From a virus: DNA of 64,000 nucleotides. A program made the translations under genes and the position numbers. Under the pieces are notes generated by a model. It saw only the letters and a program-made list of their open reading frames with translations. It was not told the origin of the DNA and did not search any database. The stretch is from IMG/VR virus record IMGVR_UViG_3300020183_000015, positions 1 through 64,000 of that record. The stretch is one strand, 5' to 3'. This document shows, piece after piece, positions 19,868 to 41,366 of this stretch. How positions within the stretch are numbered: the first letter of the stretch is position 1; each line of letters opens with the position of its first letter.

Positions 19868-19900
19868 TATAAATAAATACTTTGATGTATGGTATTTATA
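19868..19900. promoter_or_regulatory. Divergent pair of putative late promoters
   Basis: tataaata at 19868-19875 (minus-strand TATTTATA) and tatttata at 19893-19900 (plus strand), at the strand switch. Confidence 0.65.
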
Positions 19901-19909
19901 TTTAAAAAG

Positions 19910-22900
19910 ATGGCGTATCAAAATATAAATCAATATAACTACCCCAAATTAAAATTACAACTTGTTTATGATGGACAAGACATGTCGCTTGCATCAGACG
20001 AAAAAAATTTTAATGAGGAAGTTGTTTTTTCGCCTTATTTGATTGCACAAACATACGGTAAAAAATTACCTGTATATTTTGATATTGATAACCCATTAAC
20101 ATGGATTCCAAAAGAACTTACCTATAAAAATTACGATCAAACAAATATTTTTGTTTCTCAAAATTATTACGAACCTGATGGTTTAGATTTAGATTGTTTT
20201 AAAGTTGATACCGCCTGTGATATTGGTTTGACAGGAATTGACAATGGTCTTGTTAACCAAATGACAGGAAAAACCATAACTTTTACAAACGGACTCTTTA
20301 ATGATTTTCTAAAATTTCAAAGATTATATTTTGACAGACGTTTAAAAATGTTCCAAGTTACTGGATATACTGGAACTTACAACAGATTTTCTGCCATAAC
20401 TCAACAAACTTTATATGAGGTTGTATCAAAAGACAACATTGCGGTTGGAAAATACCATGAATTATATGGTGGGTTTTATCAAGGATTTCACAAACTTTTT
20501 GGATATGATTATGACATTTTACCGAATCGTGTAAACAAAGGTTGGACTGTAGAAATGTTATTAAAACCAAGGTTGTTTGAAGAATATCAACCTGGACCTG
20601 GTGAGACCACTTTGAACGAGATCTATCCTCGAAATAAAAATATGTTTTTTTATTGGGGAACAAGAGCTGAAAATAAATTTTATCACCACGCTAATGGTAG
20701 TCCTTGGAATTATAGCGGGTACACAAGAGTAACTAGTCCATTGTATAATTGTATTGAGACATGTGCTTGTTGTAATACAGGAGTTACTAATAGTAGATGT
20801 ATTTACGTTTACCCACCAAGATCTCAAAACAATCAACATGACCCACATGTTAATTATGGTTGTAATGTTTGTAATGGAAACCCAACACCACAATGTGGTT
20901 GTAGTTGTGGTCAGTTACCTTGTTTAGAATGTGGTTGGGAATGCCAAACCCATACTTGCGCACCTGCGTCACCAACACCAACACCAACCCCAACACCGAC
21001 GACAGTACCGGTTTCTTGCGAGAATTGTGAAAATCAAATAAATTTACCATTACCAGGTAACAGTATTTCTTATGTTAGCGGGATCACAATTTCGGCTTCA
21101 GGAAGTGGAGACATTACTACAAACGGACTACCAACAGGTTTCATTGATGATTGTGGTTTTATAAATTTACAAAACTCAATAGCTTTAGGTCAAAATGTTC
21201 CGTTCGGATCCCCTTATACATACACTTTGACTTTTAGTCAACCTGTTAATAATATTTCAATTGTTTTACTTGGATATAACATTGCTTTTGGTCCAAGTCC
21301 TACTGAATATTTCGTAATTACAACCAATACAGGTAATAATACACCTGAAATCACATTATGTTCTGGATGTTGCGCTTCAATATCAGGTAATGTTATAACC
21401 GCTAGTAATGTTAATGGTGATTGTGTTCCTGAGACTAATAGCGGTGCGGGACAATTCAACATAAGAAATTCACAACCTTTTACATCATTAACTATATCAG
21501 GAAATGGAGGATCTTCAGGTTCTTTAATCACAATTTGTGACCATACTCCACTTGAAATTAATAACGCTATAATAACTCAAGATGGTTATTACTTAATAGT
21601 TGGCGATAATCAATATCTATCTTTCAGTGGATCAAATACAATTGTACCTGAAAATTTATCTGAAAATTTTTATAATGACAATTGGACTGAAGAGGTATAT
21701 GTGGTCGATAAACTTGATTTCCCAAACCCAAGCCCAACGCCAACACCTACGCCAACTTTACCTCCCTATGAGTTTGTTTGTCCACCTGATAAACCAAGTC
21801 CAACATGTAGTCCTCAAGCGAATATATGTAATAGTTGTGGTTTCCCTATTGATGATTGTGACGGTGGAACATGTAGTTCATGTGGTTGTGGATGTAATCA
21901 ACCAAAACCAAACCCTTGGTCTTCGGTTGAGGATACTTGCGAAAAAGATCCAAAATACGATACCATATCTAATAATCTTGCGTTCAAATTAGGTGGAGAC
22001 CCTAAAAACCCAACAATTTGTGTAAGAGTACTTAAAATAACAGGGGCATGTGAGGTGTCAGGAACTTGTGTCACTGGAGTGACTTATGAGACAGGTTGTA
22101 CTATTACTGAAATTTGTACTCCACCTATCTACCCATACTGTTTGGAAGTGAATCCTGCATGGTTAGAACTTGAACATTGGTTCCAAATAGATGCCGTTTG
22201 GGAGAGGTATACCTATATTGAATCTTGCGATTTATTTTGGTATGGTGGTTTAGGTGTATTGACAAGAGAAGAATATCTTCAGTCTTTGGCAAACAACGCA
22301 CCTTCTTTGATTGCACCTCCATATACAAATGATAGAGCGGTTGCAGAAAAAATTACATTGATTCAAATGAATAACTTGTGGTTAGAACAAGAAAAATTCA
22401 GAAGAGGTCGATTAAAAATTTATGTCAACGGTAGAAAATTCTTCACAATAGAAAATTTTGAAGAAATGATTCCAAGGGCTTTAAGTACGGATAAGGAAAG
22501 ACAACTTGGTGTACCATTTAACATGTCTTGGGGTGGAGGAACACAAGGATTACACGAGAACCTTACATTCTCTGCTTGTACGGATCTGTTAGGAAACTAT
22601 ATTCAAGATCCTGAATGTTTCCCAACAAACATTTTAGACCAATCTTCTTTGTCTGGTATGACTACAAATATTTTATTGGAAGAAAATTTTGGTGGTACTT
22701 TTGACGGAGGTATTTCTCAGTTTAGATTTTATGTAGAACCTTTAGGTGCTGATGAGGTAAAACACAATTTCAAGTTATTGAAGGATAAATTTTTGATGTT
22801 TGATCCTGATTGTCCTGTTTGTGATACAGAGTTCTGTGAACCAAATGACTTTACTAGTATTGTTATACCTGTTTCGCCAACACCAACACCAACAACAACT

Positions 22901-23617
22901 CCAGCTCCTTCAGTAACACCAACACCAACACCTACTATGACCGTGACACCTACGGTCACACCAAGCCCTATTCCTGGTTTAACACCAACGCCAACACCTA
23001 CAATTACAGTAACTGCAACAATTACACCTACACCAACACCTTCCGCGGCGGCAGCAAAAACATCATATCTATTCATAGAGCCTGTAACAGGAGCAACAAA
23101 TATTGGTCAATGGATGTTCGACGGAGGAAGAGACTTCTTTGGATTTACAAATTATAGTCAACCTACTCAAAATGTACCATTATTTAATTTAGATATGAAC
23201 AGATATGTTGACTTTACAGGATGGACTTCAGGTTTATTCCCAACAATAATAACTCAAAATGTTCCTATTTCATCTGGAGGGTTAGATTCTTTTGGGAACT
23301 CAATAGTTGCATTTAACTTCACAACAACCGAAGTTCTTGAAAATACGGTACCTGTTGATGCTTGGTATACTTGGATTATACCAGTGGCGGCTACTAATTT
23401 TGAAAGGCAAATAATAATTGATCTAAATGACAATGGAAATCCTAATCTTTTAACTGCCGTTCACACAGAAGATACAATAAATTATTATACGTTTACGTAT
23501 ACAGGAACGACACTTCCGACCGCAACTTACCGTGTTTATACAACTTACCCAAGTCCGATATTTAAAATATTGAACAACAAAACTATTTATTTTAGAGGAA
23601 ACGAAGTAGAACCGTAA
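19910..23617 (+). CDS. Large Cys-rich virion protein with a split LamG/ConA-like lectin fold and Pro-Thr tracts
   Basis: LamG motifs GWTVEMLLKP, HWFQIDAVW, LKIYVNG, FDGGISQFRFY...EVKHNF; three PT tracts; start moved to the ATG at 19910 (MAYQ), downstream of the late motif. Confidence 0.7.
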   Translation: MAYQNINQYNYPKLKLQLVYDGQDMSLASDEKNFNEEVVFSPYLIAQTYGKKLPVYFDIDNPLTWIPKELTYKNYDQTNIFVSQNYYEPDGLDLDCFKVDTACDIGLTGIDNGLVNQMTGKTITFTNGLFNDFLKFQRLYFDRRLKMFQVTGYTGTYNRFSAITQQTLYEVVSKDNIAVGKYHELYGGFYQGFHKLFGYDYDILPNRVNKGWTVEMLLKPRLFEEYQPGPGETTLNEIYPRNKNMFFYWGTRAENKFYHHANGSPWNYSGYTRVTSPLYNCIETCACCNTGVTNSRCIYVYPPRSQNNQHDPHVNYGCNVCNGNPTPQCGCSCGQLPCLECGWECQTHTCAPASPTPTPTPTPTTVPVSCENCENQINLPLPGNSISYVSGITISASGSGDITTNGLPTGFIDDCGFINLQNSIALGQNVPFGSPYTYTLTFSQPVNNISIVLLGYNIAFGPSPTEYFVITTNTGNNTPEITLCSGCCASISGNVITASNVNGDCVPETNSGAGQFNIRNSQPFTSLTISGNGGSSGSLITICDHTPLEINNAIITQDGYYLIVGDNQYLSFSGSNTIVPENLSENFYNDNWTEEVYVVDKLDFPNPSPTPTPTPTLPPYEFVCPPDKPSPTCSPQANICNSCGFPIDDCDGGTCSSCGCGCNQPKPNPWSSVEDTCEKDPKYDTISNNLAFKLGGDPKNPTICVRVLKITGACEVSGTCVTGVTYETGCTITEICTPPIYPYCLEVNPAWLELEHWFQIDAVWERYTYIESCDLFWYGGLGVLTREEYLQSLANNAPSLIAPPYTNDRAVAEKITLIQMNNLWLEQEKFRRGRLKIYVNGRKFFTIENFEEMIPRALSTDKERQLGVPFNMSWGGGTQGLHENLTFSACTDLLGNYIQDPECFPTNILDQSSLSGMTTNILLEENFGGTFDGGISQFRFYVEPLGADEVKHNFKLLKDKFLMFDPDCPVCDTEFCEPNDFTSIVIPVSPTPTPTTTPAPSVTPTPTPTMTVTPTVTPSPIPGLTPTPTPTITVTATITPTPTPSAAAAKTSYLFIEPVTGATNIGQWMFDGGRDFFGFTNYSQPTQNVPLFNLDMNRYVDFTGWTSGLFPTIITQNVPISSGGLDSFGNSIVAFNFTTTEVLENTVPVDAWYTWIIPVAATNFERQIIIDLNDNGNPNLLTAVHTEDTINYYTFTYTGTTLPTATYRVYTTYPSPIFKILNNKTIYFRGNEVEP

Positions 23618-26600
23618 TGTCAGGATTATATCAAAACCCAATCACACCTATATCAGTATTAGGACCAAGTTCGGTACCTAGAATAAAACCTTTTGGCACC
23701 AATTTTAGCGTTGTAGGGGTTGGTGGATACATGGAGGTTTACAATTTAAGTGATCTTTATTTTACCGTTCCACTGTCAACAACAGGAAGTATAGAAAACA
23801 GCGGAAATACTATTCCAATACAATTTTCAAAAGGTACAGGTTCTTCATTTTCTCCTGATGTATTAACATTAAACTCCGATAATATTTCTTCCGGTAGAAG
23901 GCGATTGGGTATGTTGGTGTACGTTTATGAAACAGATACATTTTATCAATATCATATAAACAATTATCAAACTTTATGGTCAAATGCTACGGGATCCACA
24001 GGTCTTGGTGGACCAACTGTTGTAATATCAAATTTTGGCACCACAATAAAATCAAATTCACCAAGTGGAATTCAATTTATAAATCAATGGTTATCTAACA
24101 AAATTGAGGGTATAAGTGGTGAAACCGCATCAACTGCTGTTTGGAGGCTTTTTGGTGTGTCGGGAGCAACGGGTACAAGTGGTACTTCAGGTACTAATGG
24201 GTCGAGCGGAACTTCAGGTACTAATGGAACAAGTGGTACTTCAGGCACAAACGGAACTTCAGGTACTAACGGCACAAACGGAACTTCAGGTATAGATGGA
24301 TTTAGCGGAACTTCAGGAACTAATGGTACTTCAGGAACCAACGGAACTTCAGGTATAGATGGATTTAGCGGAACTTCAGGAACTAATGGTACTTCAGGAA
24401 CCAACGGAACTTCAGGTACTAACGGTACAAATGGATCATCGGGTACTAATGGAGCTAGCGGTACAAACGGAACTTCGGGTATTAACGGCACAAACGGAAC
24501 TTCGGGTACTAACGGAACTTCAGGTACTAATGGAACTTCAGGTATAGATGGATTTAGCGGAACTTCAGGAACTAACGGAACTTCGGGTATAAATGGGACA
24601 TCAGGAACTAACGGAACAAATGGTACTAGCGGTACGAATGGAACCTCGGGAACTAACGGTACATCAGGAACTAACGGAACAAATGGTTCTAGCGGTATAA
24701 ATGGCACAAATGGTTCAAGTGGAACTAGCGGAACAAATGGTACGAGCGGGACCAACGGTACATCAGGAACCAACGGAACTAGCGGTACTAGCGGTACAAA
24801 TGGAACTTCAGGGACTAATGGTACTAACGGAACTTCAGGAACAAATGGAACTTCAGGTACAAATGGAACCTCAGGAACGAACGGTACAAGTGGTACTAGC
24901 GGCACCAACGGTACATCAGGAACCAATGGTACTAGTGGAACTAACGGTACATCAGGTACAAACGGAACTTCAGGAACCAATGGTACAAGCGGAACCAATG
25001 GTACAAACGGTACCTCAGGAACTAATGGGACTAATGGAACGAATGGTACATCAGGCACAAATGGTACTAGCGGAACTAACGGTACAAGTGGAACGAGCGG
25101 GTCATCAGGGACAAATGGTACTAGTGGAACTAACGGTACAAATGGAACCAGCGGAATAAATGGTACTAACGGGACAAGCGGTACCAACGGTACTAACGGA
25201 ACGTCGGGAACAAATGGTACTAACGGTACTTCAGGTACTAACGGGACAAGCGGTACCAACGGTACTAACGGAACGTCAGGAACAAATGGTACTAACGGTA
25301 CTTCAGGTACTAATGGAACAAGTGGTACGAATGGAACAAGTGGAAGTTCAGGGACTAACGGGACTAGCGGTACGAATGGAACTTCCGGATCAAGTGGTAC
25401 AAACGGAACAAGTGGAAGTTCAGGGACTAACGGGACTAGCGGTACGAATGGAACATCGGGAACAAGTGGATCTTCAGGTACTAATGGTACAAGTGGAACT
25501 AATGGAACATCAGGTACAAATGGTACTAGTGGAACAAATGGTACGAATGGAACTAGCGGTACTAATGGAACTTCAGGAACAAATGGAACTAACGGGACTA
25601 GTGGAACTAACGGTACTTCAGGAACAAATGGTACTAACGGAACTTCAGGATCAAGTGGAACCAATGGTACCAGTGGAACTAATGGTACTAGTGGGGCAAA
25701 CGGAACTTCAGGAACAAATGGTACAAATGGCACTTCGGGAACAAATGGGACTTCAGGTACAAATGGTACTTCGGGAACCAATGGAACCAATGGGACTTCA
25801 GGTACAAATGGAACCAACGGCACAAGCGGCACCAATGGGACTTCAGGAACAAACGGTACTAGTGGAACGAACGGAACTAATGGTACCTCAGGTACTAATG
25901 GAACTTCAGGAACCAATGGTACGAATGGAACAAGTGGAACTAACGGTACGTCAGGTACAAATGGGACTTCAGGGACTAACGGAACTAATGGAACTTCAGG
26001 AACCAATGGTACGAATGGAACAAGTGGAACCAACGGGACTTCAGGAACCAACGGAACAAGTGGTACGAATGGTACTTCAGGTACAAACGGAACATCAGGT
26101 TCTAGTGGAACAAATGGTACAAGCGGTTCATCAGGAACTAACGGTACTAGCGGTACAAACGGGACTAGCGGAAGTTCAGGATCTTCGGGTACAAATGGTA
26201 CATCAGGATCAAGTGGAATTAGCGGTTCTTCAGGAACTAACGGAACAAATGGAACATCAGGTTCAAGTGGTACGAATGGTACTAGCGGTACAAACGGAAC
26301 AAGTGGATCTTCAGGAACAAATGGAACTAGCGGAACTAATGGGACATCGGGTTCATCAGGAACTAATGGTACATCAGGAACTAACGGAACTTCAGGTACA
26401 AACGGTACGAGCGGTTCGTCAGGGTCAAGTGGAATAAATGGAACTTCAGGCACAAACGGTACCTCAGGATCAAGTGGAACTAACGGTACTAGCGGTACTA
26501 ATGGTACAAGCGGTTCTTCAGGAACTAATGGTACTAGTGGTACAAACGGTACAAGTGGGTCTTCAGGTACAAATGGCACATCAGGTACTAACGGAACATC

Positions 26601-29600
26601 GGGAACGAACGGTACAAATGGAACGTCAGGAACTAATGGTACATCAGGTACTAACGGAACAAACGGCTCAAGCGGAACTGATGGAACATCTGGTACAAAC
26701 GGAACTTCGGGAACAAACGGTACATCAGGAACTAATGGAACCAACGGTACATCGGGTACAAACGGAACTAATGGGACTTCAGGGACTAATGGAACTAACG
26801 GTACTAGCGGAACGAACGGGACTTCAGGAACTAATGGTACAAATGGATCAAGTGGAACAAACGGAACTAGTGGTACGAATGGTACATCAGGAACTAATGG
26901 AACTAATGGAACAAGTGGCACTAACGGAACTTCAGGTACTAACGGAACCAATGGTACAAGTGGAACTAATGGTACAGATGGTACTAGCGGAACGTCGGGT
27001 ACAAACGGAACTAATGGTACTAGCGGTACTAATGGAACGTCGGGTACAAACGGAACATCAGGATCTAGCGGTACTAATGGAAGTTCAGGTACAAACGGAA
27101 CGTCGGGTACTAATGGAACAAACGGTACTAGCGGGACAAATGGCACAAGTGGAACAAATGGAACATCGGGTGTAAATGGTACAAGTGGGACTAATGGCAC
27201 ATCAGGTAGTAGTGGTACAAACGGAACATCAGGTTCAAGCGGAACCAATGGGACATCAGGTACAAATGGAACTTCAGGATCTAGCGGAACAAATGGAACA
27301 AGCGGAACGGATGGAACAAGTGGTACATCAGGGACTAACGGAACAAGCGGAACGAATGGAACAAGTGGTTCTTCAGGAACCAATGGGACATCTGGATCTT
27401 CGGGCACAAACGGAACTAGTGGTACAAATGGAACCAACGGGACTTCAGGAACTAACGGAACTAATGGTACCTCAGGAACAAATGGTACAAACGGAACATC
27501 GGGAACAAATGGCACCAATGGAACAAATGGTTCAAGCGGCACGAATGGAACTAACGGTACAAATGGTACGTCCGGAACTAATGGAACCAACGGAACATCG
27601 GGTACCAACGGTACGTCAGGTACAAATGGAACTAATGGAACAAGTGGCACTAACGGAACTTCAGGTACTAACGGAACCAACGGGACTTCAGGGACTAATG
27701 GAACAAATGGTACTTCAGGTACTAATGGATCATCAGGAACTAATGGCACAAACGGAACTTCAGGGACAAATGGGACTAACGGGACAAATGGATCAAGTGG
27801 AACGAATGGTACTAGTGGAACAAATGGAACATCAGGAACAAATGGAACTTCTGGTACAAATGGTACAAGCGGCACAAATGGAACCAACGGGACTAGTGGA
27901 ACAAATGGTACATCAGGAACTAATGGTACAAATGGTTCAAGCGGAACTAATGGAACTAGCGGTAATAATGGAACTTCAGGAACAAACGGTACTAACGGAA
28001 CAAGTGGTACAAATGGAACAAATGGTACGAATGGTACTTCGGGGACTAATGGAACCTCAGGTACAAACGGAACAAACGGTACTAGCGGGACAAATGGCAC
28101 AAGTGGAACTAATGGGACAAATGGTTCAAGTGGTACCAACGGGACTTCAGGGACTAATGGAACAAGTGGTTCGTCAGGAACTAACGGTACTAATGGAACT
28201 TCTGGATCTTCAGGTACAAATGGAACTAGCGGAACTAATGGGACATCGGGTTCATCAGGAACAAATGGTACTAGCGGTTCTTCAGGAACTAACGGTACTA
28301 GCGGATCATCAGGATCAAGTGGTACTAATGGTACTAGCGGATCATCAGGAACTAACGGAACATCAGGATCAAGCGGTACTAATGGAACCTCTGGTACAAA
28401 CGGTACAAGTGGTACTAATGGAACCAATGGTACTTCGGGGACTAATGGAACAAATGGTACTTCGGGGACTAATGGTACTAGCGGAACAAATGGTACAAAT
28501 GGTACTAGTGGAACGAACGGAACAAACGGCACTTCAGGCACAAACGGGACATCAGGCACCAATGGAACTTCTGGAACTAACGGGACTAATGGAACCAACG
28601 GTACTAGCGGAACAAATGGAACTTCAGGTACAAATGGCACGTCAGGGACTAATGGGACAAACGGAACTTCAGGGACTAATGGAACATCGGGAACAAATGG
28701 TACGAACGGTACTAGCGGGACTAATGGAACATCAGGTACAAATGGTACTTCAGGGACTAATGGGACAAACGGAACTTCAGGGACTAATGGTACCAGCGGA
28801 ACTAATGGAACCAGCGGAATAAATGGTACTTCAGGAACAAATGGTACAAATGGTACTAGCGGAACCAATGGAACAAACGGAACGAATGGGACTTCAGGAA
28901 CCAACGGAACTTCAGGTACGAATGGAACAAACGGAACGAATGGTACTTCAGGAACAAATGGTACAAATGGTACAAGTGGAACTAATGGAACTTCGGGTAC
29001 AAATGGTACTAGCGGAACAAATGGTACATCAGGAACAAATGGAACTAATGGAACCTCAGGAACGAACGGTACGAATGGTACTTCAGGAACAAATGGTACC
29101 AGCGGAACAAATGGTACATCAGGAACAAATGGAACATCAGGTACTAATGGAACAAATGGTACTAGCGGTACAAATGGAACATCAGGTACAAACGGAACAA
29201 ATGGAACATCAGGTACAAACGGAGCATCAGGTACCAACGGTACTAGTGGAACGTCGGGAACAAATGGAACTAACGGAACTAGTGGTACAAACGGAACTAG
29301 TGGTACAAACGGAACAAATGGTACCAGCGGAACAAATGGTACATCAGGTACTAATGGAACAAATGGTACTAGCGGTACAAATGGTACTTCGGGAACCAAT
29401 GGAACCAATGGGACTTCAGGTACAAATGGAACCAACGGCACAAGCGGCACCAATGGGACTTCAGGAACAAATGGTACATCAGGTACTAATGGAACAAATG
29501 GTACTAGCGGTACAAATGGAACATCGGGCACAAACGGAACCTCAGGAACAAATGGAACCAACGGTACAAGCGGTACCAATGGTACAAGTGGAACCAACGG

Positions 29601-31788
29601 AACTTCAGGTACAAACGGGACAAATGGTACTAGCGGAACTAACGGTACTTCAGGTGTTAACGGAACAAGTGGTACAAATGGAACTAGCGGAACGTCAGGA
29701 ACAAATGGTACTTCAGGTGTTAACGGAACAAGTGGTACTAATGGTACATCAGGAACGAATGGAACCAGCGGAATGAATGGTACTTCAGGAACAAATGGTA
29801 CAAATGGAACTAGCGGAACAAATGGTACATCAGGAACGAATGGAACTAGCGGAACTAACGGTACTTCAGGTGTTAACGGAACAAGTGGTACAAATGGAAC
29901 CAACGGTACAAATGGATCTTCAGGAACAAGTGGTGGAGGTGGAGGTGGTTGTTTAACCGAAAATACTTTAATTGCATCAAATTCAGGTAGTTTCAATATT
30001 CGTATACAAGATGATCGTAGTACGGAATTTCTTTTTATGGGAAATTCGGAATGTGGTTGGAATGGTTGTTATTGGGACAACGGATCTTCATTTGGTTTAG
30101 CACCAAGACCTATTAGAGGTTCGGAAAGTTGGTTTGGTGTACCTTCACCAGTTGACGTAAGATCAGGAGATAGTATTAGATTATGTGGAAACATATATTG
30201 GGAAACCCCTTCTGAAACAAGTTATACACCTTCGTTTGTCGTTTCTTTATATTATTACCAATGTAATGATTTAGGAGACTTTATACCACTTACCTCAGTT
30301 ATATCACCAACATATTATACTTGGACTTCGGATTGGTTATGTTTTGATGTTTCACATACTTTTACGGAATATAAAAATGCTTGTGATGTATTTTTTGTTG
30401 TAGGGTTTAATATGATACAAGATAGTCCTGATGCAGCAAACCCAAGATTCACATATACATTAAATTATGAAAAAGATTGTTCAATTCCTGATGGTGAATT
30501 TTATGTTTTAAGAAACTGTTGTGAACCTACTGTAACAGAAATTATAGTAGGAAACGGTCTTACACTTGGTACTTTTTGGAGTGACGCTCAAGGTAACTGT
30601 TGGGAAATAGAAAGTACTAGTTTCACGGCACCAAATAGTTTTAGAACATTAGTTAATAATTACGCAAGTTGTGCGGATTGTATTTCTTCTAATGAATGTC
30701 CTGATAATGCAGTTATAAGTAGTTGTTGTGTTGAGGGAGTAGAATTTGTGACAGGATCTTTAGGTTTAACAATAGGTGACACTTTTGTTGATGATGACGG
30801 TTTATGTTGGGAAGTACTTACAGGGACAACCGCACCTGTAACTGCACCAACAATTACAATTGGAACAACTGGATATACCGATTGTGATGATTGTGAGGTT
30901 ACAAACCCTTGTCCTGAATTTTGGCTAATTGAGTCTTGTTGTAAAAATCTACCATCTGAAGTCATATCAATTCCTGCAGGAACTGTTTCGAATAGTCAAA
31001 CATGGATAGACTCAGATGGATACTGTTGGGCAATTGGTAGCAAAACAAATTCATTACCAACAAATTACGACATAACTTTAGTAACACAATATTCGTCTGT
31101 TCGTGATTGTACGGAATGTAATGATGATAACCCTTGTCCTGAAGTTATTTACACAACAATAAGACAATGTTGTGACCCGCTTCAAGTTGAAACTTTTTCA
31201 GCATATACAACTATTTCAGTAGGTTCAATAATCCAAGATATTAATGGTATTTGTTGGGAAGTAGTCGGGTGGGCATTTACTGGAACAATAACAATTGAAC
31301 CACCTTTAGTTTTCAAAAGTTATTCTACTTGTGAAAATTGCTTAATAACGGTAAACGGATGTCCTGATTATTATTTATTCTCAGCATGTTGTGAAACAGG
31401 ATTTACAGAAATTGCATACGGTGTGTTTATTACAGGTGCAACATACCAAGCATTTCCAAGTAGTAACTGTTATACTTGTGTATCTCTAACTACTGGTACA
31501 CCTACAATGAATTTTTGGTTTAGCCTGCATTTTGAATCTTGTGAGGATTGTATCGAAACATATCCATGTTCTTATGTTGAGATTTCAGATTGTTGTGGAT
31601 TATTACCCAATAAAATAGTCTATAATGATGGAAATTCTATTTTAAATGGTACTTTCTACGACAGTACAAGTGATAATTGTTGGTCTTTTGTTAGTTACAC
31701 TACAGGGCCTGCAACTTTAACTTTAGGTACGATTACTCCATATCTTGATTGTGATGTATGTATTTCTTTTAACGCATGTACAGCATAG
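23617..31788 (+). CDS. Giant collagen-like (Gly-Thr-Asn/Ser)n fibre protein with Cys-repeat C-terminus
   Basis: 2723-aa ORF: ~180-aa N-domain (RRRLGMLVYV), Gly-X-Y tract, GGGGGG linker, globular domain and six Cys modules. Confidence 0.85.
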   Translation: MSGLYQNPITPISVLGPSSVPRIKPFGTNFSVVGVGGYMEVYNLSDLYFTVPLSTTGSIENSGNTIPIQFSKGTGSSFSPDVLTLNSDNISSGRRRLGMLVYVYETDTFYQYHINNYQTLWSNATGSTGLGGPTVVISNFGTTIKSNSPSGIQFINQWLSNKIEGISGETASTAVWRLFGVSGATGTSGTSGTNGSSGTSGTNGTSGTSGTNGTSGTNGTNGTSGIDGFSGTSGTNGTSGTNGTSGIDGFSGTSGTNGTSGTNGTSGTNGTNGSSGTNGASGTNGTSGINGTNGTSGTNGTSGTNGTSGIDGFSGTSGTNGTSGINGTSGTNGTNGTSGTNGTSGTNGTSGTNGTNGSSGINGTNGSSGTSGTNGTSGTNGTSGTNGTSGTSGTNGTSGTNGTNGTSGTNGTSGTNGTSGTNGTSGTSGTNGTSGTNGTSGTNGTSGTNGTSGTNGTSGTNGTNGTSGTNGTNGTNGTSGTNGTSGTNGTSGTSGSSGTNGTSGTNGTNGTSGINGTNGTSGTNGTNGTSGTNGTNGTSGTNGTSGTNGTNGTSGTNGTNGTSGTNGTSGTNGTSGSSGTNGTSGTNGTSGSSGTNGTSGSSGTNGTSGTNGTSGTSGSSGTNGTSGTNGTSGTNGTSGTNGTNGTSGTNGTSGTNGTNGTSGTNGTSGTNGTNGTSGSSGTNGTSGTNGTSGANGTSGTNGTNGTSGTNGTSGTNGTSGTNGTNGTSGTNGTNGTSGTNGTSGTNGTSGTNGTNGTSGTNGTSGTNGTNGTSGTNGTSGTNGTSGTNGTNGTSGTNGTNGTSGTNGTSGTNGTSGTNGTSGTNGTSGSSGTNGTSGSSGTNGTSGTNGTSGSSGSSGTNGTSGSSGISGSSGTNGTNGTSGSSGTNGTSGTNGTSGSSGTNGTSGTNGTSGSSGTNGTSGTNGTSGTNGTSGSSGSSGINGTSGTNGTSGSSGTNGTSGTNGTSGSSGTNGTSGTNGTSGSSGTNGTSGTNGTSGTNGTNGTSGTNGTSGTNGTNGSSGTDGTSGTNGTSGTNGTSGTNGTNGTSGTNGTNGTSGTNGTNGTSGTNGTSGTNGTNGSSGTNGTSGTNGTSGTNGTNGTSGTNGTSGTNGTNGTSGTNGTDGTSGTSGTNGTNGTSGTNGTSGTNGTSGSSGTNGSSGTNGTSGTNGTNGTSGTNGTSGTNGTSGVNGTSGTNGTSGSSGTNGTSGSSGTNGTSGTNGTSGSSGTNGTSGTDGTSGTSGTNGTSGTNGTSGSSGTNGTSGSSGTNGTSGTNGTNGTSGTNGTNGTSGTNGTNGTSGTNGTNGTNGSSGTNGTNGTNGTSGTNGTNGTSGTNGTSGTNGTNGTSGTNGTSGTNGTNGTSGTNGTNGTSGTNGSSGTNGTNGTSGTNGTNGTNGSSGTNGTSGTNGTSGTNGTSGTNGTSGTNGTNGTSGTNGTSGTNGTNGSSGTNGTSGNNGTSGTNGTNGTSGTNGTNGTNGTSGTNGTSGTNGTNGTSGTNGTSGTNGTNGSSGTNGTSGTNGTSGSSGTNGTNGTSGSSGTNGTSGTNGTSGSSGTNGTSGSSGTNGTSGSSGSSGTNGTSGSSGTNGTSGSSGTNGTSGTNGTSGTNGTNGTSGTNGTNGTSGTNGTSGTNGTNGTSGTNGTNGTSGTNGTSGTNGTSGTNGTNGTNGTSGTNGTSGTNGTSGTNGTNGTSGTNGTSGTNGTNGTSGTNGTSGTNGTSGTNGTNGTSGTNGTSGTNGTSGINGTSGTNGTNGTSGTNGTNGTNGTSGTNGTSGTNGTNGTNGTSGTNGTNGTSGTNGTSGTNGTSGTNGTSGTNGTNGTSGTNGTNGTSGTNGTSGTNGTSGTNGTSGTNGTNGTSGTNGTSGTNGTNGTSGTNGASGTNGTSGTSGTNGTNGTSGTNGTSGTNGTNGTSGTNGTSGTNGTNGTSGTNGTSGTNGTNGTSGTNGTNGTSGTNGTSGTNGTSGTNGTNGTSGTNGTSGTNGTSGTNGTNGTSGTNGTSGTNGTSGTNGTNGTSGTNGTSGVNGTSGTNGTSGTSGTNGTSGVNGTSGTNGTSGTNGTSGMNGTSGTNGTNGTSGTNGTSGTNGTSGTNGTSGVNGTSGTNGTNGTNGSSGTSGGGGGGCLTENTLIASNSGSFNIRIQDDRSTEFLFMGNSECGWNGCYWDNGSSFGLAPRPIRGSESWFGVPSPVDVRSGDSIRLCGNIYWETPSETSYTPSFVVSLYYYQCNDLGDFIPLTSVISPTYYTWTSDWLCFDVSHTFTEYKNACDVFFVVGFNMIQDSPDAANPRFTYTLNYEKDCSIPDGEFYVLRNCCEPTVTEIIVGNGLTLGTFWSDAQGNCWEIESTSFTAPNSFRTLVNNYASCADCISSNECPDNAVISSCCVEGVEFVTGSLGLTIGDTFVDDDGLCWEVLTGTTAPVTAPTITIGTTGYTDCDDCEVTNPCPEFWLIESCCKNLPSEVISIPAGTVSNSQTWIDSDGYCWAIGSKTNSLPTNYDITLVTQYSSVRDCTECNDDNPCPEVIYTTIRQCCDPLQVETFSAYTTISVGSIIQDINGICWEVVGWAFTGTITIEPPLVFKSYSTCENCLITVNGCPDYYLFSACCETGFTEIAYGVFITGATYQAFPSSNCYTCVSLTTGTPTMNFWFSLHFESCEDCIETYPCSYVEISDCCGLLPNKIVYNDGNSILNGTFYDSTSDNCWSFVSYTTGPATLTLGTITPYLDCDVCISFNACTA
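24154..29931 (+). repeat. Gly-X-Y coding repeat (9-nt period), about 642 triplets
   Basis: First Gly codon at 24154 and last at 29923 are exactly 641x9 nt apart; dominated by GTN, GTS and GSS. Confidence 0.95.
30499..31785 (+). repeat. Six tandem ~70-aa Cys modules (CC...C[WY]...CxxC...C)
   Basis: NCC/SCC/SCC/QCC/ACC/DCC, each followed by C[WY] and CxxC...C in the translation. Confidence 0.85.
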
Positions 31789-31827
31789 AAATAAAAAACC
31801 TCACCTTTTAAGTTGGGTTTTTTATTT
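31789..31827. terminator. Bidirectional terminator-like inverted repeat
   Basis: aaataaaaaacc ... ggttttttattt between convergent genes. Confidence 0.65.
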
Positions 31828-34751
31828 TATTTTCTATTATCAATATAAATTATGACTTCACAATACCACTCAATAAAATGTTCATTCCATAAATCCCATT
31901 TTATATCTACACCATCTACTGAGTAAACTTCATAGTTATCAAATAGTGGTAAGATGTTATCTCTGAACCATCTGAATTTACATTTGTGAAAATTCTCATC
32001 ATCTCTTAAATGAAACTCAGTAACTATTTTTGGTACAGTTTTTAAAAACTCAATGTTTGATGGTTGAAAAACATCATACTCACCTCCCTCACAATCACAT
32101 TTCAAAAAATCGATTTTTTCAATGTTATTGTCATCTAAGAATTCTTTAAAACTAAATGTTGGTACACTTTCAGAAATGTTGTCCCAACTGATTTCTATTT
32201 TCTTTTTATCTGTAATTGCCCCTTGAATTATTTTTACATTTTCTCGACCAACATTTTTTTTCAATACCTCAACTTGATATGATAAAGGTTCCACAACAAA
32301 ACATTGTTTAGGATTTTTTGGTAATATTGAATATGTAAACGGCCCTAAAGAAGCCCCCAAATCTACAACAACATCCCCCTCCTCAACCTGAAAAATTCTT
32401 TCATAGATATTACCCTCAAATATTTCTTTGGTTACGGCATTTACATACCATTCACTTTTCTTTCCCCAATCAAATGAATGGTCGTTAAAATTTTTGTTCA
32501 TTAATTTTTTATTTATTATTTTGTTTATTTCAAAAATAACCATTTCGGATGTTATTTGTTTTGTACATTCAAACATCCTTTCAGTTTCTTTATGTAATGG
32601 ACACCAATTCCAGTCACCCGCGTCTAATCTTTCTTTATTGAAACATCCATGACAGACGTTTTCATTTATTACCCGATAAGTGTCCAAAGTAGTTTCTGTC
32701 CATTTTTCACTAAAACCTGAAATCAAAACAATTGGTAGTTCGCAAGCCCATGCTAACCATGACAACCCTGACCCAAGACCAACAAAAAATTCACAAGTTG
32801 ACAGATCGTCAATAACTTCTTGTAAATCACCTCCTTTGAATATTTTTACACCTTTTGGGTAATTGTTATTCATGTAACTATCTCCTTCTCTTGAGTAAAT
32901 CATACATTCATATCCTTGTAATGTGAGATAATCAACAACTTCTTGCCAACCATTTGGGTTGTTCCAATATTTTGCCTGTGCCGTTGAGTGAAATCCAATA
33001 CCAACCTTTTTTTGTTTTTTTACTTTTGGTAAATTTAATTTGGGTCTAATTTCTGTATAATCTAATCCTAAGATGTCACTAGCTGTTTTTTGAAGTGGGT
33101 GACTTTTAACATCGAATTTGTGATTATTTAAATTAATTTCCCCGTCGTCTTTATAAAACCACCCTAATTTGTATTGTGCATAAACGTTATAAACAAGTTC
33201 ACCAGGTTCTACAAATTCAATATCGGGGTATTGATCTTCAAACAAGAAGTTCATAAATGTAGAAACTATTAGTTCACAGTCGTGTTTTTTTCTAAACTCC
33301 TCACAATATGGAAACCAAGCCATTGTATCACCCAATGATTTAGAACCAAATGAAATATAAACCCTACGACCTTTTAAATCTAAAGTGTTTTCATAAATCA
33401 ATTCATTGTTCTCTCTAATTTCAGTTTTCCATTTTGTGTAATATTCTCTATTAAGTTTTACCCAATGATTTATTTTTGATTTATTGTAATATATTAAATC
33501 TTCTCCATCAAAATATTTAATTTCAAAATCATTGTCACTTTCACCTAAGACTTCTAAAAATGGATTAACAACAAAATGTTGATTAATCACATAATCATTT
33601 TTTATTTTAAAATTTGAAACAAACGGTGACTCCATAACTTTATTATAGAAACTCAACAATTGAGTACCAAAATCTTTTTCTATTTTCAACTTGTAACTAT
33701 TAGTTTCTGAAATTAAATTTAATAAGTCGTTTTTAATTTGTTCGGGATTATTACTAGATATTGGATAAATGTAATTTGAAAACATATTCACATACTGAGG
33801 AAGATCTCTTGCTAATATCTTCAAACCATAATTTATTGATTCTCTAATAACTAAAGGATTACATTCCCAAGTAGAATTAAACATTAAAGCGTCAGACGCA
33901 ATCATAAATTTCTCAACGTCATTTCTTTCGCCCCAAACAGTTACATTACTTGGTAAACTATCCATTATAGGTTTCCAATAATCTTCAAAATTTGGCGCTT
34001 GATTTCCAATGAAATGAAAATGAATATCAGGATGAGAATTTTCTAAAAGTCTTGCAACCTCAACTCCTTCTTTTTGATTTTTACCTGATGTCCATAACCC
34101 AACATTTATTATGTGTGTTTTCATAGAGTCCAATCCCAATTCATTTCTTACCTCAATTTTTTTCAAAAGTGGAACTTTATGATCGTCATAAAATATTTCT
34201 AATTCATTCAGAATTGGTTTAACCTTATCTTCATATGGATAAATTATTAAATCTTTAGGTGATACCGTATTTTTAAATGAAACTTCGCCGTGGTAAGGTG
34301 TTACAAAACAATAATAATCAGGATTTAATCTTTTGTTGTTGTTACCATCAAACCAAATGTTATGACATGTCTCAACAATTTTATATGATCTTGAGTTATC
34401 ATAAAGTTCATTTAACAACTCAAAAGGTATTTTATTAAAACTCTCAAACGCCTCAGGTAATTCTTCTGAATGAACAATATCAATATTATTTTCTTTTATA
34501 ATTTTTATAAGATTATATTTTTTTTCGGTTTCTGTTGTACCACCCAACGAATAAAAATGATCTTTACCCAATAACTCTATGATTTTATTTCTTTGGACAA
34601 TGTATGTGTCACTAAATTGTGAATATTCGATCAAAAAAATCTCAATCTCATCTTTGTATTTTTGTAGTAATTCAATTCTTTTTAAAACAAATTGTGGCAT
34701 TCCACCAGTTGATAGGTGGGGTGTTAAGTATAACAATCTAATCTTTTTCAT
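31827..34751 (-). CDS. Three-domain fusion: GT4-like glycosyltransferase, AAH/TibC-type autotransporter O-heptosyltransferase and FkbM methyltransferase
   Basis: PHLSTGGMPQ...KNQ...ECNPLVIRE (GT4); SLGDTMAWFPY, STAQAKYWNNPNGW, FVGLGSGLSWLAWA, CHGC...WCP...FEC (BAHT with Cys4 finger); VDLGASLG...KCDCEGGE (FkbM). Confidence 0.85.
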   Translation of the reverse strand: MKKIRLLYLTPHLSTGGMPQFVLKRIELLQKYKDEIEIFLIEYSQFSDTYIVQRNKIIELLGKDHFYSLGGTTETEKKYNLIKIIKENNIDIVHSEELPEAFESFNKIPFELLNELYDNSRSYKIVETCHNIWFDGNNNKRLNPDYYCFVTPYHGEVSFKNTVSPKDLIIYPYEDKVKPILNELEIFYDDHKVPLLKKIEVRNELGLDSMKTHIINVGLWTSGKNQKEGVEVARLLENSHPDIHFHFIGNQAPNFEDYWKPIMDSLPSNVTVWGERNDVEKFMIASDALMFNSTWECNPLVIRESINYGLKILARDLPQYVNMFSNYIYPISSNNPEQIKNDLLNLISETNSYKLKIEKDFGTQLLSFYNKVMESPFVSNFKIKNDYVINQHFVVNPFLEVLGESDNDFEIKYFDGEDLIYYNKSKINHWVKLNREYYTKWKTEIRENNELIYENTLDLKGRRVYISFGSKSLGDTMAWFPYCEEFRKKHDCELIVSTFMNFLFEDQYPDIEFVEPGELVYNVYAQYKLGWFYKDDGEINLNNHKFDVKSHPLQKTASDILGLDYTEIRPKLNLPKVKKQKKVGIGFHSTAQAKYWNNPNGWQEVVDYLTLQGYECMIYSREGDSYMNNNYPKGVKIFKGGDLQEVIDDLSTCEFFVGLGSGLSWLAWACELPIVLISGFSEKWTETTLDTYRVINENVCHGCFNKERLDAGDWNWCPLHKETERMFECTKQITSEMVIFEINKIINKKLMNKNFNDHSFDWGKKSEWYVNAVTKEIFEGNIYERIFQVEEGDVVVDLGASLGPFTYSILPKNPKQCFVVEPLSYQVEVLKKNVGRENVKIIQGAITDKKKIEISWDNISESVPTFSFKEFLDDNNIEKIDFLKCDCEGGEYDVFQPSNIEFLKTVPKIVTEFHLRDDENFHKCKFRWFRDNILPLFDNYEVYSVDGVDIKWDLWNEHFIEWYCEVIIYIDNRK

Positions 34752-41274: not shown

Positions 41275-41366
41275 ACTCGGTGAACGTGTATTTTGTATCA
41301 TGTTTACCTGGATACCTCAGCTTAAAACAATTTACATTTCTTGTATTTTACAATATTTTTATTTTT

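What the first reader, a model, noticed from the sequence alone, without database searches (positions are those of the whole stretch)
24154..29931. About 642 Gly-X-Y triplets with no proline and N-G-T/S sequons throughout
Seen: the Gly register is the same at both ends of 1926 residues (641x9 nt apart) and I saw no break in the translation. X is nearly always Thr and Y is Asn or Ser, with no Pro and almost no charge, so nearly every Asn sits in an N-G-[TS] sequon. Established: bacterial and phage collagens usually rely on Pro or charge pairs, and glycosylated Thr can stabilise Pro-poor triple helices. Inference: this is a triple helix (about 550 nm at ~0.29 nm per residue) or a polyglycine-II bundle, possibly needing glycosylation for stability. 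That would be an exceptionally long phage appendage.
Basis: partly seen in the sequence, partly recalled or inferred. Interest (0 to 1): 0.8.

Follow-up and report, generated by a model that had tools for sequence, protein, structure and literature searches.

The report
Giant proline-free collagen-like phage fibre
An uncultured lake phage encodes a 2,723-residue fibre protein whose shaft is 642 unbroken glycine-threonine-asparagine/serine triplets with no proline, next to a protein-glycosylating enzyme, so it is probably a sugar-coated collagen-type thread about half a micrometre long.

Summary
ORF 23617-31788 (+) has exactly 642 uninterrupted Gly-X-Y triplets at 24154-29931, with 0 Pro and 6 Asp as the only charges.

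It is a modular phage fibre:
- a 179-aa N-terminal anchor shared with hundreds of tail-fibre-like proteins;
- the collagen-type shaft (Pfam Collagen, 294 bits);
- a Gly6 hinge;
- a Cys-rich tip.

The DNA is degenerate (longest exact repeat 98 nt). Pieces of the tract sit at flank-like depth in four lake metagenome runs, but no read spans it.

The tract is not unique. 17 of 35 related fibre lineages carry such shafts, and 6 have at least 500 triplets (up to 1,020). This scan has already noted the class on other DNA.

The convergent neighbouring gene is a GT4 / TibC-like / FkbM fusion (E 6e-63 to TibC, all four iron-finger Cys kept). TibC-like genes lie within 10 kb of such tracts in 26 of 43 dereplicated phage loci, against 0 of 55 control loci. 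O-glycosylation is therefore supported by comparative evidence.

The N-G-T/S sequon reading is not supported: it follows from the composition, it is nearly absent in several relatives, and no N-glycosyltransferase was found. The triple helix, the glycan and presence in the virion remain untested.

The parts
19889..23617 (+). Upstream partner gene: 1242 aa, Cys-rich with Pro-Thr linkers. Its stop overlaps the fibre start (TAATG).
   Evidence: ORF, sequence, overlap read. tblastn finds a homologue of its C-terminal ~360 aa (about 63% identity) just upstream of the anchor domain in 50 of 80 related loci. No Pfam family.
23617..24153 (+). N-terminal 179-aa anchor domain of the fibre.
   Evidence: 771 proteins at E<=1e-3 (315-2000 aa), the best 120 at 60-71% identity, plus 39 among 1497-4766-aa proteins. 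113 of 115 IMG/VR stretches are relatives. One relative ends in Peptidase_S74. No Pfam or PDB match.
24154..29931 (+). Shaft of 642 uninterrupted Gly-Thr-(Asn/Ser) triplets, Pro-free and nearly charge-free.
   Evidence: Pfam Collagen PF01391 scores 294.3 and 292.9 bits on two 600-aa pieces. The DNA is degenerate: the 9-nt period gives 59% matches and the longest exact repeat is 98 nt.
29932..29949 (+). Gly6 hinge between shaft and tip.
   Evidence: The same GGGGGG-Cys junction ends the 1,019-triplet fibre of locus L084. L247 and L248 have GGGNC at this point.
29950..30501 (+). 184-aa junction domain with 9 Cys that follows the shaft.
   Evidence: It is homologous to the start of the C-terminal family (94 relatives) and is present alone after the L084 tract. 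No Pfam family.
30502..31788 (+). Six tandem 65-77-aa modules, each CC...C[WY]...C..C...C; the presumed distal, host-binding tip.
   Evidence: Cys columns are nearly invariant in the 36-sequence alignment A2. No Pfam, PDB or Atlas match. The same tip sits on a 60-65-triplet shaft in L247 and L248.
31827..34751 (-). Convergent 974-aa enzyme fusing a GT4 domain, a TibC-like protein O-glycosyltransferase and an FkbM methyltransferase.
   Evidence: Pfam. aa 426-745 match TibC (PDB 4RB4/4RAP) at E 5.9e-63, 216 bits. Aligned to TibC residues named in PMC4358343: all four iron-finger Cys plus D110, T226, K230 and W305 are kept; R286 is Val and P300 is Gly.
39283..41274 (+). Second, shorter fibre with the same shaft chemistry: 126 Pro-free GT[NS] triplets in 4 runs and a globular C-terminus.
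   Evidence: Pfam Collagen 2e-53. Its N-terminal ~52 aa recur in L247 and L248, joined there to the giant fibre's tip.
41280..42611 (+). GT60-like (PF11397) glycosyltransferase at the head of a run of GT and methyltransferase genes; context only.
   Evidence: Pfam 1.8e-69. Homologues at 64-71% identity occur in 14 of 80 anchor loci, including loci without GXY shafts, so it is not specific to this shaft.
24084..29996 (-). Antisense 1970-aa open frame, a shadow of the repeat and not a gene.
   Evidence: Listed. The + frame is continuous with N- and C-terminal domains that have many homologues. The same shadow is annotated as a gene in a deposited phage record.

Best explanation
ORF 23617-31788 encodes a modular virion fibre of an uncultured freshwater myovirus. 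The record is about 46% complete and complete relatives are 270-320 kb, so the phage is probably a jumbo phage.

Shown: a conserved 179-aa N-terminal anchor, translationally coupled to an upstream partner protein, is followed by 642 Gly-Thr-(Asn/Ser) triplets, a Gly6 hinge, a 184-aa junction domain and six Cys6 modules.

Inferred:
- Three chains form a collagen-type triple helix about 0.55 micrometre long (1926 residues at roughly 0.29 nm each). It acts as a long flexible tether that holds the tip far from the particle and enlarges the radius for catching hosts in dilute lake water.
- The shaft has neither proline nor Lys/Arg-Asp/Glu pairs. It is therefore stabilised and shielded by O-glycosylation of its Ser (Y position) and perhaps Thr. 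The sugar would be added in the cytoplasm by the convergently encoded TibC-like enzyme, whose fused GT4 and FkbM domains would extend and methylate it.
- Shaft length is a swappable module. The same anchor and the same tip occur on shafts of about 60 to over 1,000 triplets in relatives.
For: Fibre identity:
- Anchor family, with a member ending in Peptidase_S74.
- Sheath and baseplate genes are in the record.
- An upstream partner is conserved in 50 of 80 loci.

Collagen-type shaft:
- Pfam Collagen at 294 and 293 bits.
- 642 of 642 Gly codons are intact at positions 1-2 while position 3 is scrambled.
- Single-base changes to Pro, Lys and Arg make up 4.6%, 5.5% and 9.8% of all possible changes, yet none of these residues occurs. 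This indicates purifying selection, not a recent repeat expansion.

The tract is real DNA:
- No exact repeat over 98 nt, and no 150-nt window is more than 84% like another.
- Exact 200-450-nt contig pieces across the tract have depth like the flanks: run X1 65/63 against 46-68, X13 12/16 against 7.5-16, X2 9.4/8.0 against 4.7-14.
- Complete ORFs in independent contigs carry 695, 759, 1,019 and 1,020 triplets.

Glycosylation:
- TibC match at E 5.9e-63, with the four iron-finger Cys and D110, T226, K230 and W305 conserved.
- A GXY run of at least 30 triplets lies within 10 kb of TibC-like genes in 44 of 80 loci (26 of 43 dereplicated), against 0 of 80 (0 of 55) PhoH-anchored loci from the same kind of phages; Fisher p = 1e-12.
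- By my reading of the table, 18 of those 26 are convergent as in the window.
- Ser fills 20-87% of Y positions in all 26.

Modularity:
- One anchor cluster holds both L024 (89 triplets) and L029 (1,020).
- L247 and L248 carry this tip on 60-65 triplets.
Against: - No structure could be predicted and no experiment exists. The triple helix, the trimer and the glycan are all inferred.
- Thr is in X here, not in Y where glycosyl-Thr is known to stabilise (passages in PMC11923368).
- Known TibC-family substrates are beta-helical autotransporters, not collagens.
- TibC Arg286, needed for activity and for ADP recognition, is Val here, so the donor sugar is uncertain. No ADP-heptose synthesis gene was found in the record.
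- A TibC-like gene was found in 0 of 5 contigs holding anchor-type giant fibres. Four of these end too close to the gene to judge. The L021 contig has about 19 kb downstream of its fibre and still lacks one.
- The loci compared are related phages, so co-localisation may partly reflect shared ancestry.
- The baseplate genes lie about 56-60 kb from the fibre gene.
- No read spans the tract.
Confidence: 0.55

Rival explanations
1. The shaft is an unglycosylated triple helix. It folds without sugars and is held by hydration and Thr/Asn/Ser side-chain hydrogen bonds, by the trimeric end domains, by its sheer length, and by the low temperature of lake water. The TibC-like enzyme would serve other Ser/Thr-rich virion proteins.
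For: - The habitat is lake water.
- Polar residues and hydration networks are the accepted stabilisers of bacterial collagens (review PMC8968730, passages).
- The strict N/S alternation at Y (lag-1 autocorrelation -0.52) hints at a side-chain packing rule.
- Giant anchor-type fibres occur on contigs where no TibC-like gene was found.
- Other Ser/Thr-rich proteins are nearby.
Against: - TibC-like genes and such tracts co-localise strongly (26 of 43 against 0 of 55 loci).
- (Gly-Pro-Thr)10 is a random coil unless glycosylated (PMC11923368), and this shaft lacks even Pro.
Confidence: 0.17
2. The shaft is not a triple helix. It is an extended, heavily O-glycosylated mucin-like or polyproline-II 'bottle-brush' tether, or a disordered spacer. 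The Gly periodicity would be inherited from a 9-nt repeat unit.
For: - Ser/Thr-rich composition with many glycosyltransferase genes around it.
- No known triple-helix stabiliser is present.
- The Pfam Collagen score reflects Gly periodicity and says nothing about the fold.
Against: - A disordered spacer would not need 642 of 642 Gly kept while third positions are scrambled, nor the total exclusion of register-breaking indels.
- Relatives keep runs of 897, 568 and 542 unbroken triplets with different X/Y residues. Gly at every third residue is therefore the conserved feature.
Confidence: 0.15
3. Assembly artefact. The tract is a chimeric walk through several shorter GT[NS] tracts (from strains or from the second fibre gene), so the true gene is much shorter.
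For: - It comes from a metagenome assembly.
- 25 repeated 77-mers and 316 repeated 31-mers lie within the tract.
- Logan contigs break inside it and show short-sided joints.
- 44 of 80 related ORFs are cut off, by a contig end or by the 10-kb flank limit.
Against: - No 99-mer is repeated, and every 150-nt window is unique at 84% identity or less.
- Pieces from all along the tract track the flank depth across runs that differ about 6-fold in abundance.
- Independent contigs give complete ORFs with 695-1,020 triplets.
Confidence: 0.07
4. A compact polyglycine-II bundle (as in snow-flea antifreeze protein or the phage S16 gp38 adhesin; both recalled, not checked here) or another folded Gly-repeat domain.
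For: Gly at every third residue is compatible with PPII helices.
Against: Bundles need short helices joined by turns. Here there is no break, no turn motif and no periodicity beyond 2-3 triplets in 1,926 residues.
Confidence: 0.04

Closest known systems
Collagen-like tail-fibre proteins of phages and prophages (Smith et al. 1998 'Bacteriophage collagen', seen as a citation in PMC1079782; P-SSM2 orf028; EPclA-D of E. coli O157:H7, PMC3368898, passages)
   Same: A Gly-X-Y shaft sits between an N-terminal phage-fibre domain and a C-terminal tip. The fibres are trimeric and are used as spacers in host recognition.
   Different: In EPcl proteins about half of X is Pro and charged residues are abundant. 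Their longest domain is 322 residues with one interruption. Here there are 1,926 residues, 0 Pro, 0 Lys/Arg/Glu and no interruption.
BclA of the Bacillus anthracis/cereus exosporium nap (review PMC8968730, passages)
   Same: A Thr-rich collagen-like filament on a particle surface, glycosylated on the collagen-like region.
   Different: BclA triplets are mostly Gly-Pro-Thr (recalled), so Thr is in Y and Pro in X. BclA has tens of triplets, not hundreds. It is bacterial, not viral, and its glycosyltransferases are unrelated to TibC as far as I know (recalled).
TibC-TibA and Aah-AIDA-I: bacterial autotransporter heptosyltransferases encoded beside their repetitive substrates (PMC4358343, passages; PDB 4RAP/4RB4)
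   Same: The enzyme domain is a clear homologue (E 5.9e-63) with the iron-finger Cys and the catalytic Asp. The enzyme gene lies next to a highly repetitive Ser-rich surface-fibre gene, and modification would be cytoplasmic.
   Different: The putative substrate is a collagen-type repeat of a phage, not a beta-helix adhesin. The enzyme is fused to GT4 and FkbM domains. Arg286 is Val, so the donor may not be ADP-heptose.
Glycosyl-threonine collagens: Riftia cuticle collagen and galactosylated (Gly-Pro-Thr)10 (as described in PMC11923368, passages)
   Same: Sugar on a hydroxyl residue replaces hydroxyproline as the triple-helix stabiliser.
   Different: Those have Thr in Y and Pro in X. Here Y is Ser/Asn, X is Thr, and there is no Pro at all.
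Salt-bridge 'folding code' of long collagens (Malcor et al. 2025, PMC11923368; abstract and passages)
   Same: The paper addresses how very long prokaryotic and viral collagen-like chains (up to about 2,000 triplets) fold.
   Different: It proposes KGE/KGD clamps as universal, and most abundant in viruses. This shaft has no Lys, Arg or Glu and only 6 Asp, so that mechanism cannot apply.
Mycobacteriophage virion O-glycosylation (Freeman et al. 2023; seen only as cited in PMC13445384)
   Same: Phage-encoded glycosyltransferases modify the phage's own structural proteins.
   Different: The targets are capsid and tail proteins of siphoviruses. No collagen-like substrate or TibC-type enzyme is involved as far as I know (recalled).

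Membership tests
Collagen triple-helix repeat proteins (Pfam PF01391) | Match to the family model above its curated cut-off | tested here: met
   294.3 and 292.9 bits against a cut-off of 27.2 on two 600-aa pieces.
Collagen triple-helix repeat proteins (Pfam PF01391) | Gly at every third residue without a register break | tested here: met
   642 of 642 triplets.
Collagen triple-helix repeat proteins (Pfam PF01391) | A known stabiliser in X/Y: imino acids or Lys/Arg-Asp/Glu pairs | tested here: not met
   0 Pro, 0 Lys, 0 Arg, 0 Glu and 6 Asp in 1,926 residues.
Collagen triple-helix repeat proteins (Pfam PF01391) | Three chains wound into a triple helix (CD, trimer mass, structure) | not testable with these tools
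No solved relative of either end domain was found.
Phage tail fibre | Anchor domain shared with recognised tail-fibre architectures | tested here: met
   Relatives carry beta-repeat shafts and varied tips, one with Peptidase_S74 at 4e-9. PHROGs gives only a weak hit of unknown function.
Phage tail fibre | Gene next to baseplate genes, or protein present in virions | tested here: inconclusive
   The gp25-like and Baseplate_J genes are at 87.9 and 89.4 kb of the record, about 56-60 kb away. Virion presence cannot be tested. A head or neck fibre is not excluded.
Bacterial autotransporter heptosyltransferases (BAHT; TibC/Aah), for the neighbouring enzyme | Homology to the TibC catalytic domain rather than to LPS heptosyltransferases | tested here: met
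   TibC at E 5.9e-63 over chain residues 59-386. No WaaC or WaaF chain scores below E 0.01.
Bacterial autotransporter heptosyltransferases (BAHT; TibC/Aah), for the neighbouring enzyme | Iron-finger Cys339, Cys342, Cys358 and Cys370 | tested here: met
   All four align to Cys (alignment; residues named).
Bacterial autotransporter heptosyltransferases (BAHT; TibC/Aah), for the neighbouring enzyme | Catalytic base Asp110 and sugar-binding Thr226, Lys230, Arg286 and Trp305 | tested here: inconclusive
   D110, T226, K230 and W305 are conserved, but R286 aligns to Val. That is 4 of 5, and R286A abolished or largely diminished TibC activity.
Bacterial autotransporter heptosyltransferases (BAHT; TibC/Aah), for the neighbouring enzyme | ADP-heptose donor, Ser acceptor, dodecameric ring | not testable with these tools
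   This needs biochemistry. No GmhA-type or HldE-type gene is in the record.
N-glycosylation at N-X-S/T sequons (NGT/HMW1C GT41 or PglB/STT3) | A matching transferase encoded by the phage | tested here: not met
   PF13844 and PF02516 give 0 matches in the 134-kb record, while the control genomes matched. The record is about 46% complete, and host enzymes are not excluded.
N-glycosylation at N-X-S/T sequons (NGT/HMW1C GT41 or PglB/STT3) | Sequon conserved among homologous shafts | tested here: not met
   NG[ST] counts are 4 in 813 triplets (L061), 8 in 808 (L040) and 16 in 968 (L084). They are high in others, for example 597 in 1,005 (L083).
Polyglycine-II bundle proteins | Short PPII segments separated by turns | tested here: not met
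   No break in 642 triplets, and power is seen only at periods of 2.3-2.6 triplets.

The most novel reading that the evidence does not exclude
These phages use a third way to build a collagen triple helix, with neither imino acids nor salt bridges. A TibC-type enzyme would load sugars onto Ser at the Y position (and perhaps onto Thr) of Gly-Thr-Ser/Asn repeats in the cytoplasm. The product would be a glyco-collagen thread 0.5-1 micrometre long whose length is tuned by module swapping. If so, it would be the longest known viral appendage chemistry and a counter-example to the proposed universal salt-bridge folding code.
Probability: 0.35. Interest if true: 0.8.

Novelty: new variant of a known kind. 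Interest (0 to 1): 0.65.

Why it matters
Collagen-like phage fibres are known. The published rules say triple helices need proline or hydroxyproline, charge pairs, or glycosyl-Thr in the Y position. This shaft and its relatives (hundreds to about 1,000 triplets) have none of the first two, and they sit beside a TibC-type protein glycosyltransferase.

If the shaft is triple-helical, three things follow:
- It makes directly testable how a very long collagen folds without the known 'code'.
- It extends the TibC family from bacterial adhesins to viral collagens.
- It suggests that lake jumbo phages carry half-micrometre tethers that would change their encounter rates with hosts.

It also flags a practical problem. 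Assemblies break in these genes, and annotators call the antisense strand, as in a deposited Microcystis phage record. A cultured phage with the same enzyme-fibre neighbourhood (Mel-JY01) offers an experimental handle.

I found no paper describing this class.

Tried and rejected
Instead I ran profile searches of the PDB. A1 gave only an insignificant hit at E 0.09, and A2 gave nothing.
- The two Atlas searches returned only viral hypothetical clusters for the anchor and nothing above 0.77 for the tip.
I used the search for related loci for genomic context instead.
- The top relatives from the protein database misled me at first. 0 of 120, and then 2 of 151, had GXY runs, which suggested the shaft was unique. 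The DNA-level search of IMG/VR overturned this, with 42 of 80 loci carrying GXY runs. Giant repeat ORFs are evidently under-represented among called proteins.
- INPHARED has no match to the anchor or to the tip.
- The sequon hypothesis was rejected as explained above.
- I looked for an intrinsic terminator in the 38-nt convergent spacer. The scan found 0, so I make no claim. My note mentions a hairpin that I saw by eye only.
- That same note says '20 of 26' convergent. Recounting the table gives 18 of 26, and I use that figure.
- The GT60-like cluster as a shaft-specific partner was rejected, because its homologues also flank fibres without GXY shafts.
- No RNA holder was listed among the sequencing runs, so expression could not be assessed.
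- In run X24, 3 of 30 bins had no cover.
- No paper on Mel-JY01 is in the library.
- The host was not determined.
Full report
OBSERVATION

ORF 23617-31788 (+) encodes 2,723 aa. Residues 180-2105 (window 24154-29931) are 642 consecutive Gly-X-Y triplets with non-Gly X and Y, followed by GGGGGG.
- Over the 644 Gly-started triplets, Thr fills 571 of the X positions, and Asn 333 and Ser 302 of the Y positions.
- There are 0 Pro and 6 Asp. Ten residue types are absent altogether: C, E, H, K, L, P, Q, R, W and Y.
- 331 of 334 Asn lie in N-G-[ST]. This necessarily follows when GTN precedes GT or GS.

IS THE TRACT REAL AND UNDER SELECTION?

At the DNA level the tract is not a clean repeat.
- TRF gives a 9-nt period with only 59% matches.
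- The longest exact internal repeat is 98 nt, and no 99-mer recurs.
- The best match of any 150-nt window elsewhere in the tract is 72-84%.

So it is neither a recent amplification nor a collapsed-repeat expansion.

The codons show selection.
- Gly codon positions 1 and 2 are invariant in 642 of 642 codons, while position 3 is A 304, T 248, G 61, C 29.
- Thr, Ser and Asn use all their synonymous codons.
- Single-base changes leading to Arg, Lys and Pro make up 9.8%, 5.5% and 4.6% of all possible changes, yet none of these residues is present.

This is purifying selection on the Gly register and against proline and positive charge. Y-position Asn and Ser alternate (lag-1 autocorrelation -0.52; Asn runs are never longer than 3).

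Sequencing runs give partial support.
- 24 lake or freshwater metagenome runs hold 43-87% of the sampled words of 23000-32000. These may be one campaign plus one later study.
- I laid Logan contigs of four runs. All 30 bins are covered in X1, X2 and X13, and 27 of 30 in X24.
- Exact pieces of 200-450 nt from all along the tract have depths like the flanks: X1 65/63 against 46-68, X13 12/16 against 7.5-16, X2 9.4/8.0 against 4.7-14.
- No contig spans the tract, and the listed joints have short sides of 20-42 nt, as expected from repeats.

The content is confirmed. The order and total length are not independently confirmed.

ARCHITECTURE

1. N-terminal anchor, 179 aa. No Pfam or PDB match.
   - 771 proteins of 315-2000 aa match at E<=1e-3, the best 120 at 60-71% identity. 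Another 39 match among proteins of 1497-4766 aa.
   - These relatives carry beta-type repeat shafts and varied tips. One has the Peptidase_S74 chaperone typical of trimeric fibres and spikes.
2. The shaft. Pfam Collagen scores 294 and 293 bits on two 600-aa pieces.
3. A Gly6 hinge.
4. A 184-aa junction domain with 9 Cys.
5. Six 65-77-aa modules, each with the pattern CC...C[WY]...C..C...C.
   - Parts 4 and 5 together have 94 relatives among 1.84 billion representative proteins, 36 of them at E<=1e-30.
   - 8 of the 94 carry 13-74 GXY triplets.
   - There is no Pfam, PDB or Atlas match.

The fibre start overlaps the stop of an upstream 1,242-aa Cys-rich protein (TAATG). A homologue of that protein precedes the anchor in 50 of 80 related loci.

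The window is phage DNA. It holds a 1,116-aa sheath, PolB, an SNF2 helicase and PhoH. gp25-like and Baseplate_J genes lie at 87.9 and 89.4 kb of the record.

The record is 133,946 bp, linear, and about 46% complete by CheckV. Complete relatives are 272-321 kb. This is probably a jumbo myovirus with no close cultured relative: the best PolB matches are 23-31% identical.

NOT UNIQUE

A DNA-level search of IMG/VR with the anchor found 113 relatives among 115 stretches, and 80 loci were kept.
- 42 of the 80 loci have GXY runs after the anchor. 44 of the 80 ORFs are cut by a contig end or by the flank limit.
- Dereplication gives 35 lineages. 17 have GXY shafts, 12 have at least 100 triplets and 6 have at least 500. 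These are lower bounds.
- Complete genes include:
  - L001: 2,698 aa, 695 triplets.
  - L061: 2,796 aa, 759 triplets.
  - The L029 gene: about 4,420 aa, 1,020 triplets, one run of 897.
  - The L021 gene: about 3,985 aa, 1,019 triplets, ending in the same GGGGGG-Cys junction domain as here.
- All are Pro-free or nearly so. X varies (T, S, L, I, D). Y is mostly Ser, with Asn or Asp in some.

Shaft length behaves as a module.
- One anchor cluster contains both an 89-triplet and a 1,020-triplet fibre.
- Two metagenome contigs carry this window's tip (61-62% identity) on only 60-65 GT[NS] triplets. Their N-terminus is the one found on the window's second, 126-triplet fibre.

The scan's own notebook shows the class was noted repeatedly on other DNA, with 359 to 1,829 triplets. 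I treat those notes as leads only.

GLYCOSYLATION

The neighbouring enzyme:
- 38 nt downstream, on the opposite strand, lies a 974-aa protein with GT4, GT9 and FkbM Pfam hits.
- Its residues 426-745 match TibC, the E. coli autotransporter heptosyltransferase, at E 5.9e-63 (216 bits). No LPS heptosyltransferase scores below E 0.01.
- I compared the printed alignment with residues named in PMC4358343 (passages). The four iron-finger Cys, the catalytic Asp110, and Thr226, Lys230 and Trp305 are conserved. Arg286 is Val and Pro300 is Gly.

It is thus a true TibC-family protein glycosyltransferase, but its donor sugar is uncertain.

The co-localisation test:
- All 349 IMG/VR stretches that matched a pattern encode TibC-like relatives.
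- Of the best 80 loci, 44 hold a GXY run of at least 30 triplets within 10 kb. After dereplication this is 26 of 43.
- The control was 80 PhoH-anchored loci from the same kind of phages. It gave 0 of 80, or 0 of 55 dereplicated. Fisher p = 1e-12, and relatedness inflates this value.
- In 18 of the 26 the tract is downstream on the opposite strand, as in the window.

Against the link:
- 0 of 5 contigs with anchor-type giant fibres hold a TibC-like gene. Four are cut too close to the gene to judge, and one (L021) is a real negative.
- The GT60-like cluster is not shaft-specific.

The sequon reading fares worse.
- No GT41 or STT3 gene is in the record.
- NG[ST] is nearly absent from several giant relatives.

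CULTURED RELATIVE

The TibC-like domain matches Microcystis phage Mel-JY01 at 50.5% identity, inside a 1,226-aa protein annotated as 'methyltransferase FkbM'. About 1.7 kb upstream, on the same strand, an open frame of at least 1,016 aa encodes Gly-Ser/Thr-Ser/Arg/Asp triplets. The record annotates its antisense shadows instead.

LITERATURE
- Phage collagen-like fibres are long known.
- E. coli prophage collagens rely on Pro in X and on charges, and their longest domain is 322 residues.
- A review gives Pro in X and Thr in Y as the bacterial norm, and reports BclA as glycosylated.
- Malcor et al. 2025 report prokaryotic chains of up to about 2,000 triplets. They propose KGE/KGD salt bridges as the shared folding device, and note that (Gly-Pro-Thr)10 needs galactosylation to fold.
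- I found no paper on Pro-free, charge-free giant phage collagens. Supplements were closed.

VERDICT

The best reading, at 0.55, is a trimeric collagen-type tether of about 0.55 micrometre on a lake jumbo phage, probably O-glycosylated by the adjacent TibC-like fusion enzyme, with shaft length as a swappable module.

The rivals are an unglycosylated cold-stable helix (0.17), a glycosylated non-helical brush (0.15), an assembly chimera (0.07) and a PGII bundle (0.04).

I class it as a new variant of a known kind, and as one more member of a class this scan has met before.

Noticed in passing
L245 (GenBank PP395634.1, Microcystis phage Mel-JY01) 2-3052 (+), 1-651 (-), 739-2298 (-), 4750-8430 (+): The deposited record annotates antisense 'VPLVPE...' ORFs as hypothetical proteins. 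The + strand instead carries an open collagen-like Gly-Ser/Thr-Ser frame of at least 1,016 aa. It lies about 1.7 kb upstream of a 1,226-aa TibC-like fusion annotated only as an FkbM methyltransferase. A Ser-rich 'structural protein' sits between the two.
   Followed up: partly
window 39283-41274 (+): A second fibre has the same Pro-free GT[NS] chemistry: 126 triplets in 4 runs, separated by short GTSALG / GTSAVG-type breaks. Its N-terminal ~52 aa recur on metagenome contigs L247 and L248, fused there to the giant fibre's tip.
   Followed up: partly
window 24154-29931 (+): Asn and Ser at the Y position alternate far more than chance would give (lag-1 autocorrelation -0.52; Asn runs at most 3, Ser runs at most 4; spectral power at 2.3-2.6 triplets). 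This may be a packing rule of the helix or a relic of 18/27-nt units.
   Followed up: no
window 24154-29931 (+): There are 333 Asn-Gly dipeptides, the most deamidation-prone sequence in flexible peptides (recalled knowledge). Tolerating them suggests a rigid or modified backbone, or a built-in ageing clock for the fibre.
   Followed up: no
L001-L080 and L085-L164 (IMG/VR loci): Many contigs end inside or right beside these repeat genes. 44 of 80 anchor-locus ORFs are cut, and several TibC-like loci are whole contigs of only 4-7 kb. The protein-database search missed the giant forms entirely (0 of 120 and 2 of 151 relatives with GXY runs).
   Followed up: partly
L023-L033 cluster (IMG/VR): Fibres whose anchors are at least 95% identical differ in their shafts: GSS-rich (L023, at least 214 triplets), mixed short (L024, 89 triplets, complete at 1,005 aa) and GTN/GTS (L029, 1,020 triplets). 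This implies recombination just after the anchor.
   Followed up: partly
window 54283-55386 (-): A 367-aa phage protein has complete Fe/Mn superoxide dismutase domains in its C-terminal half (aa 166-354) behind an unassigned ~165-aa N-terminal region.
   Followed up: no
window 59064-62414 (+): The tail sheath is unusually long (1,116 aa). Only its last ~200 residues match the sheath Pfam models.
   Followed up: no
window 19889-23617 (+): The upstream partner protein is very Cys-rich and has several (Pro-Thr)n linkers. Only its C-terminal ~360 aa are conserved next to the anchor in relatives.
   Followed up: partly
INPHARED records LR756501.1, LR756503.1, LR756504.1: Three uncultured 636-735-kb phage records also encode TibC-like domains (36-44% identity over 98-99% of the query). 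I did not examine their neighbourhoods.
   Followed up: no
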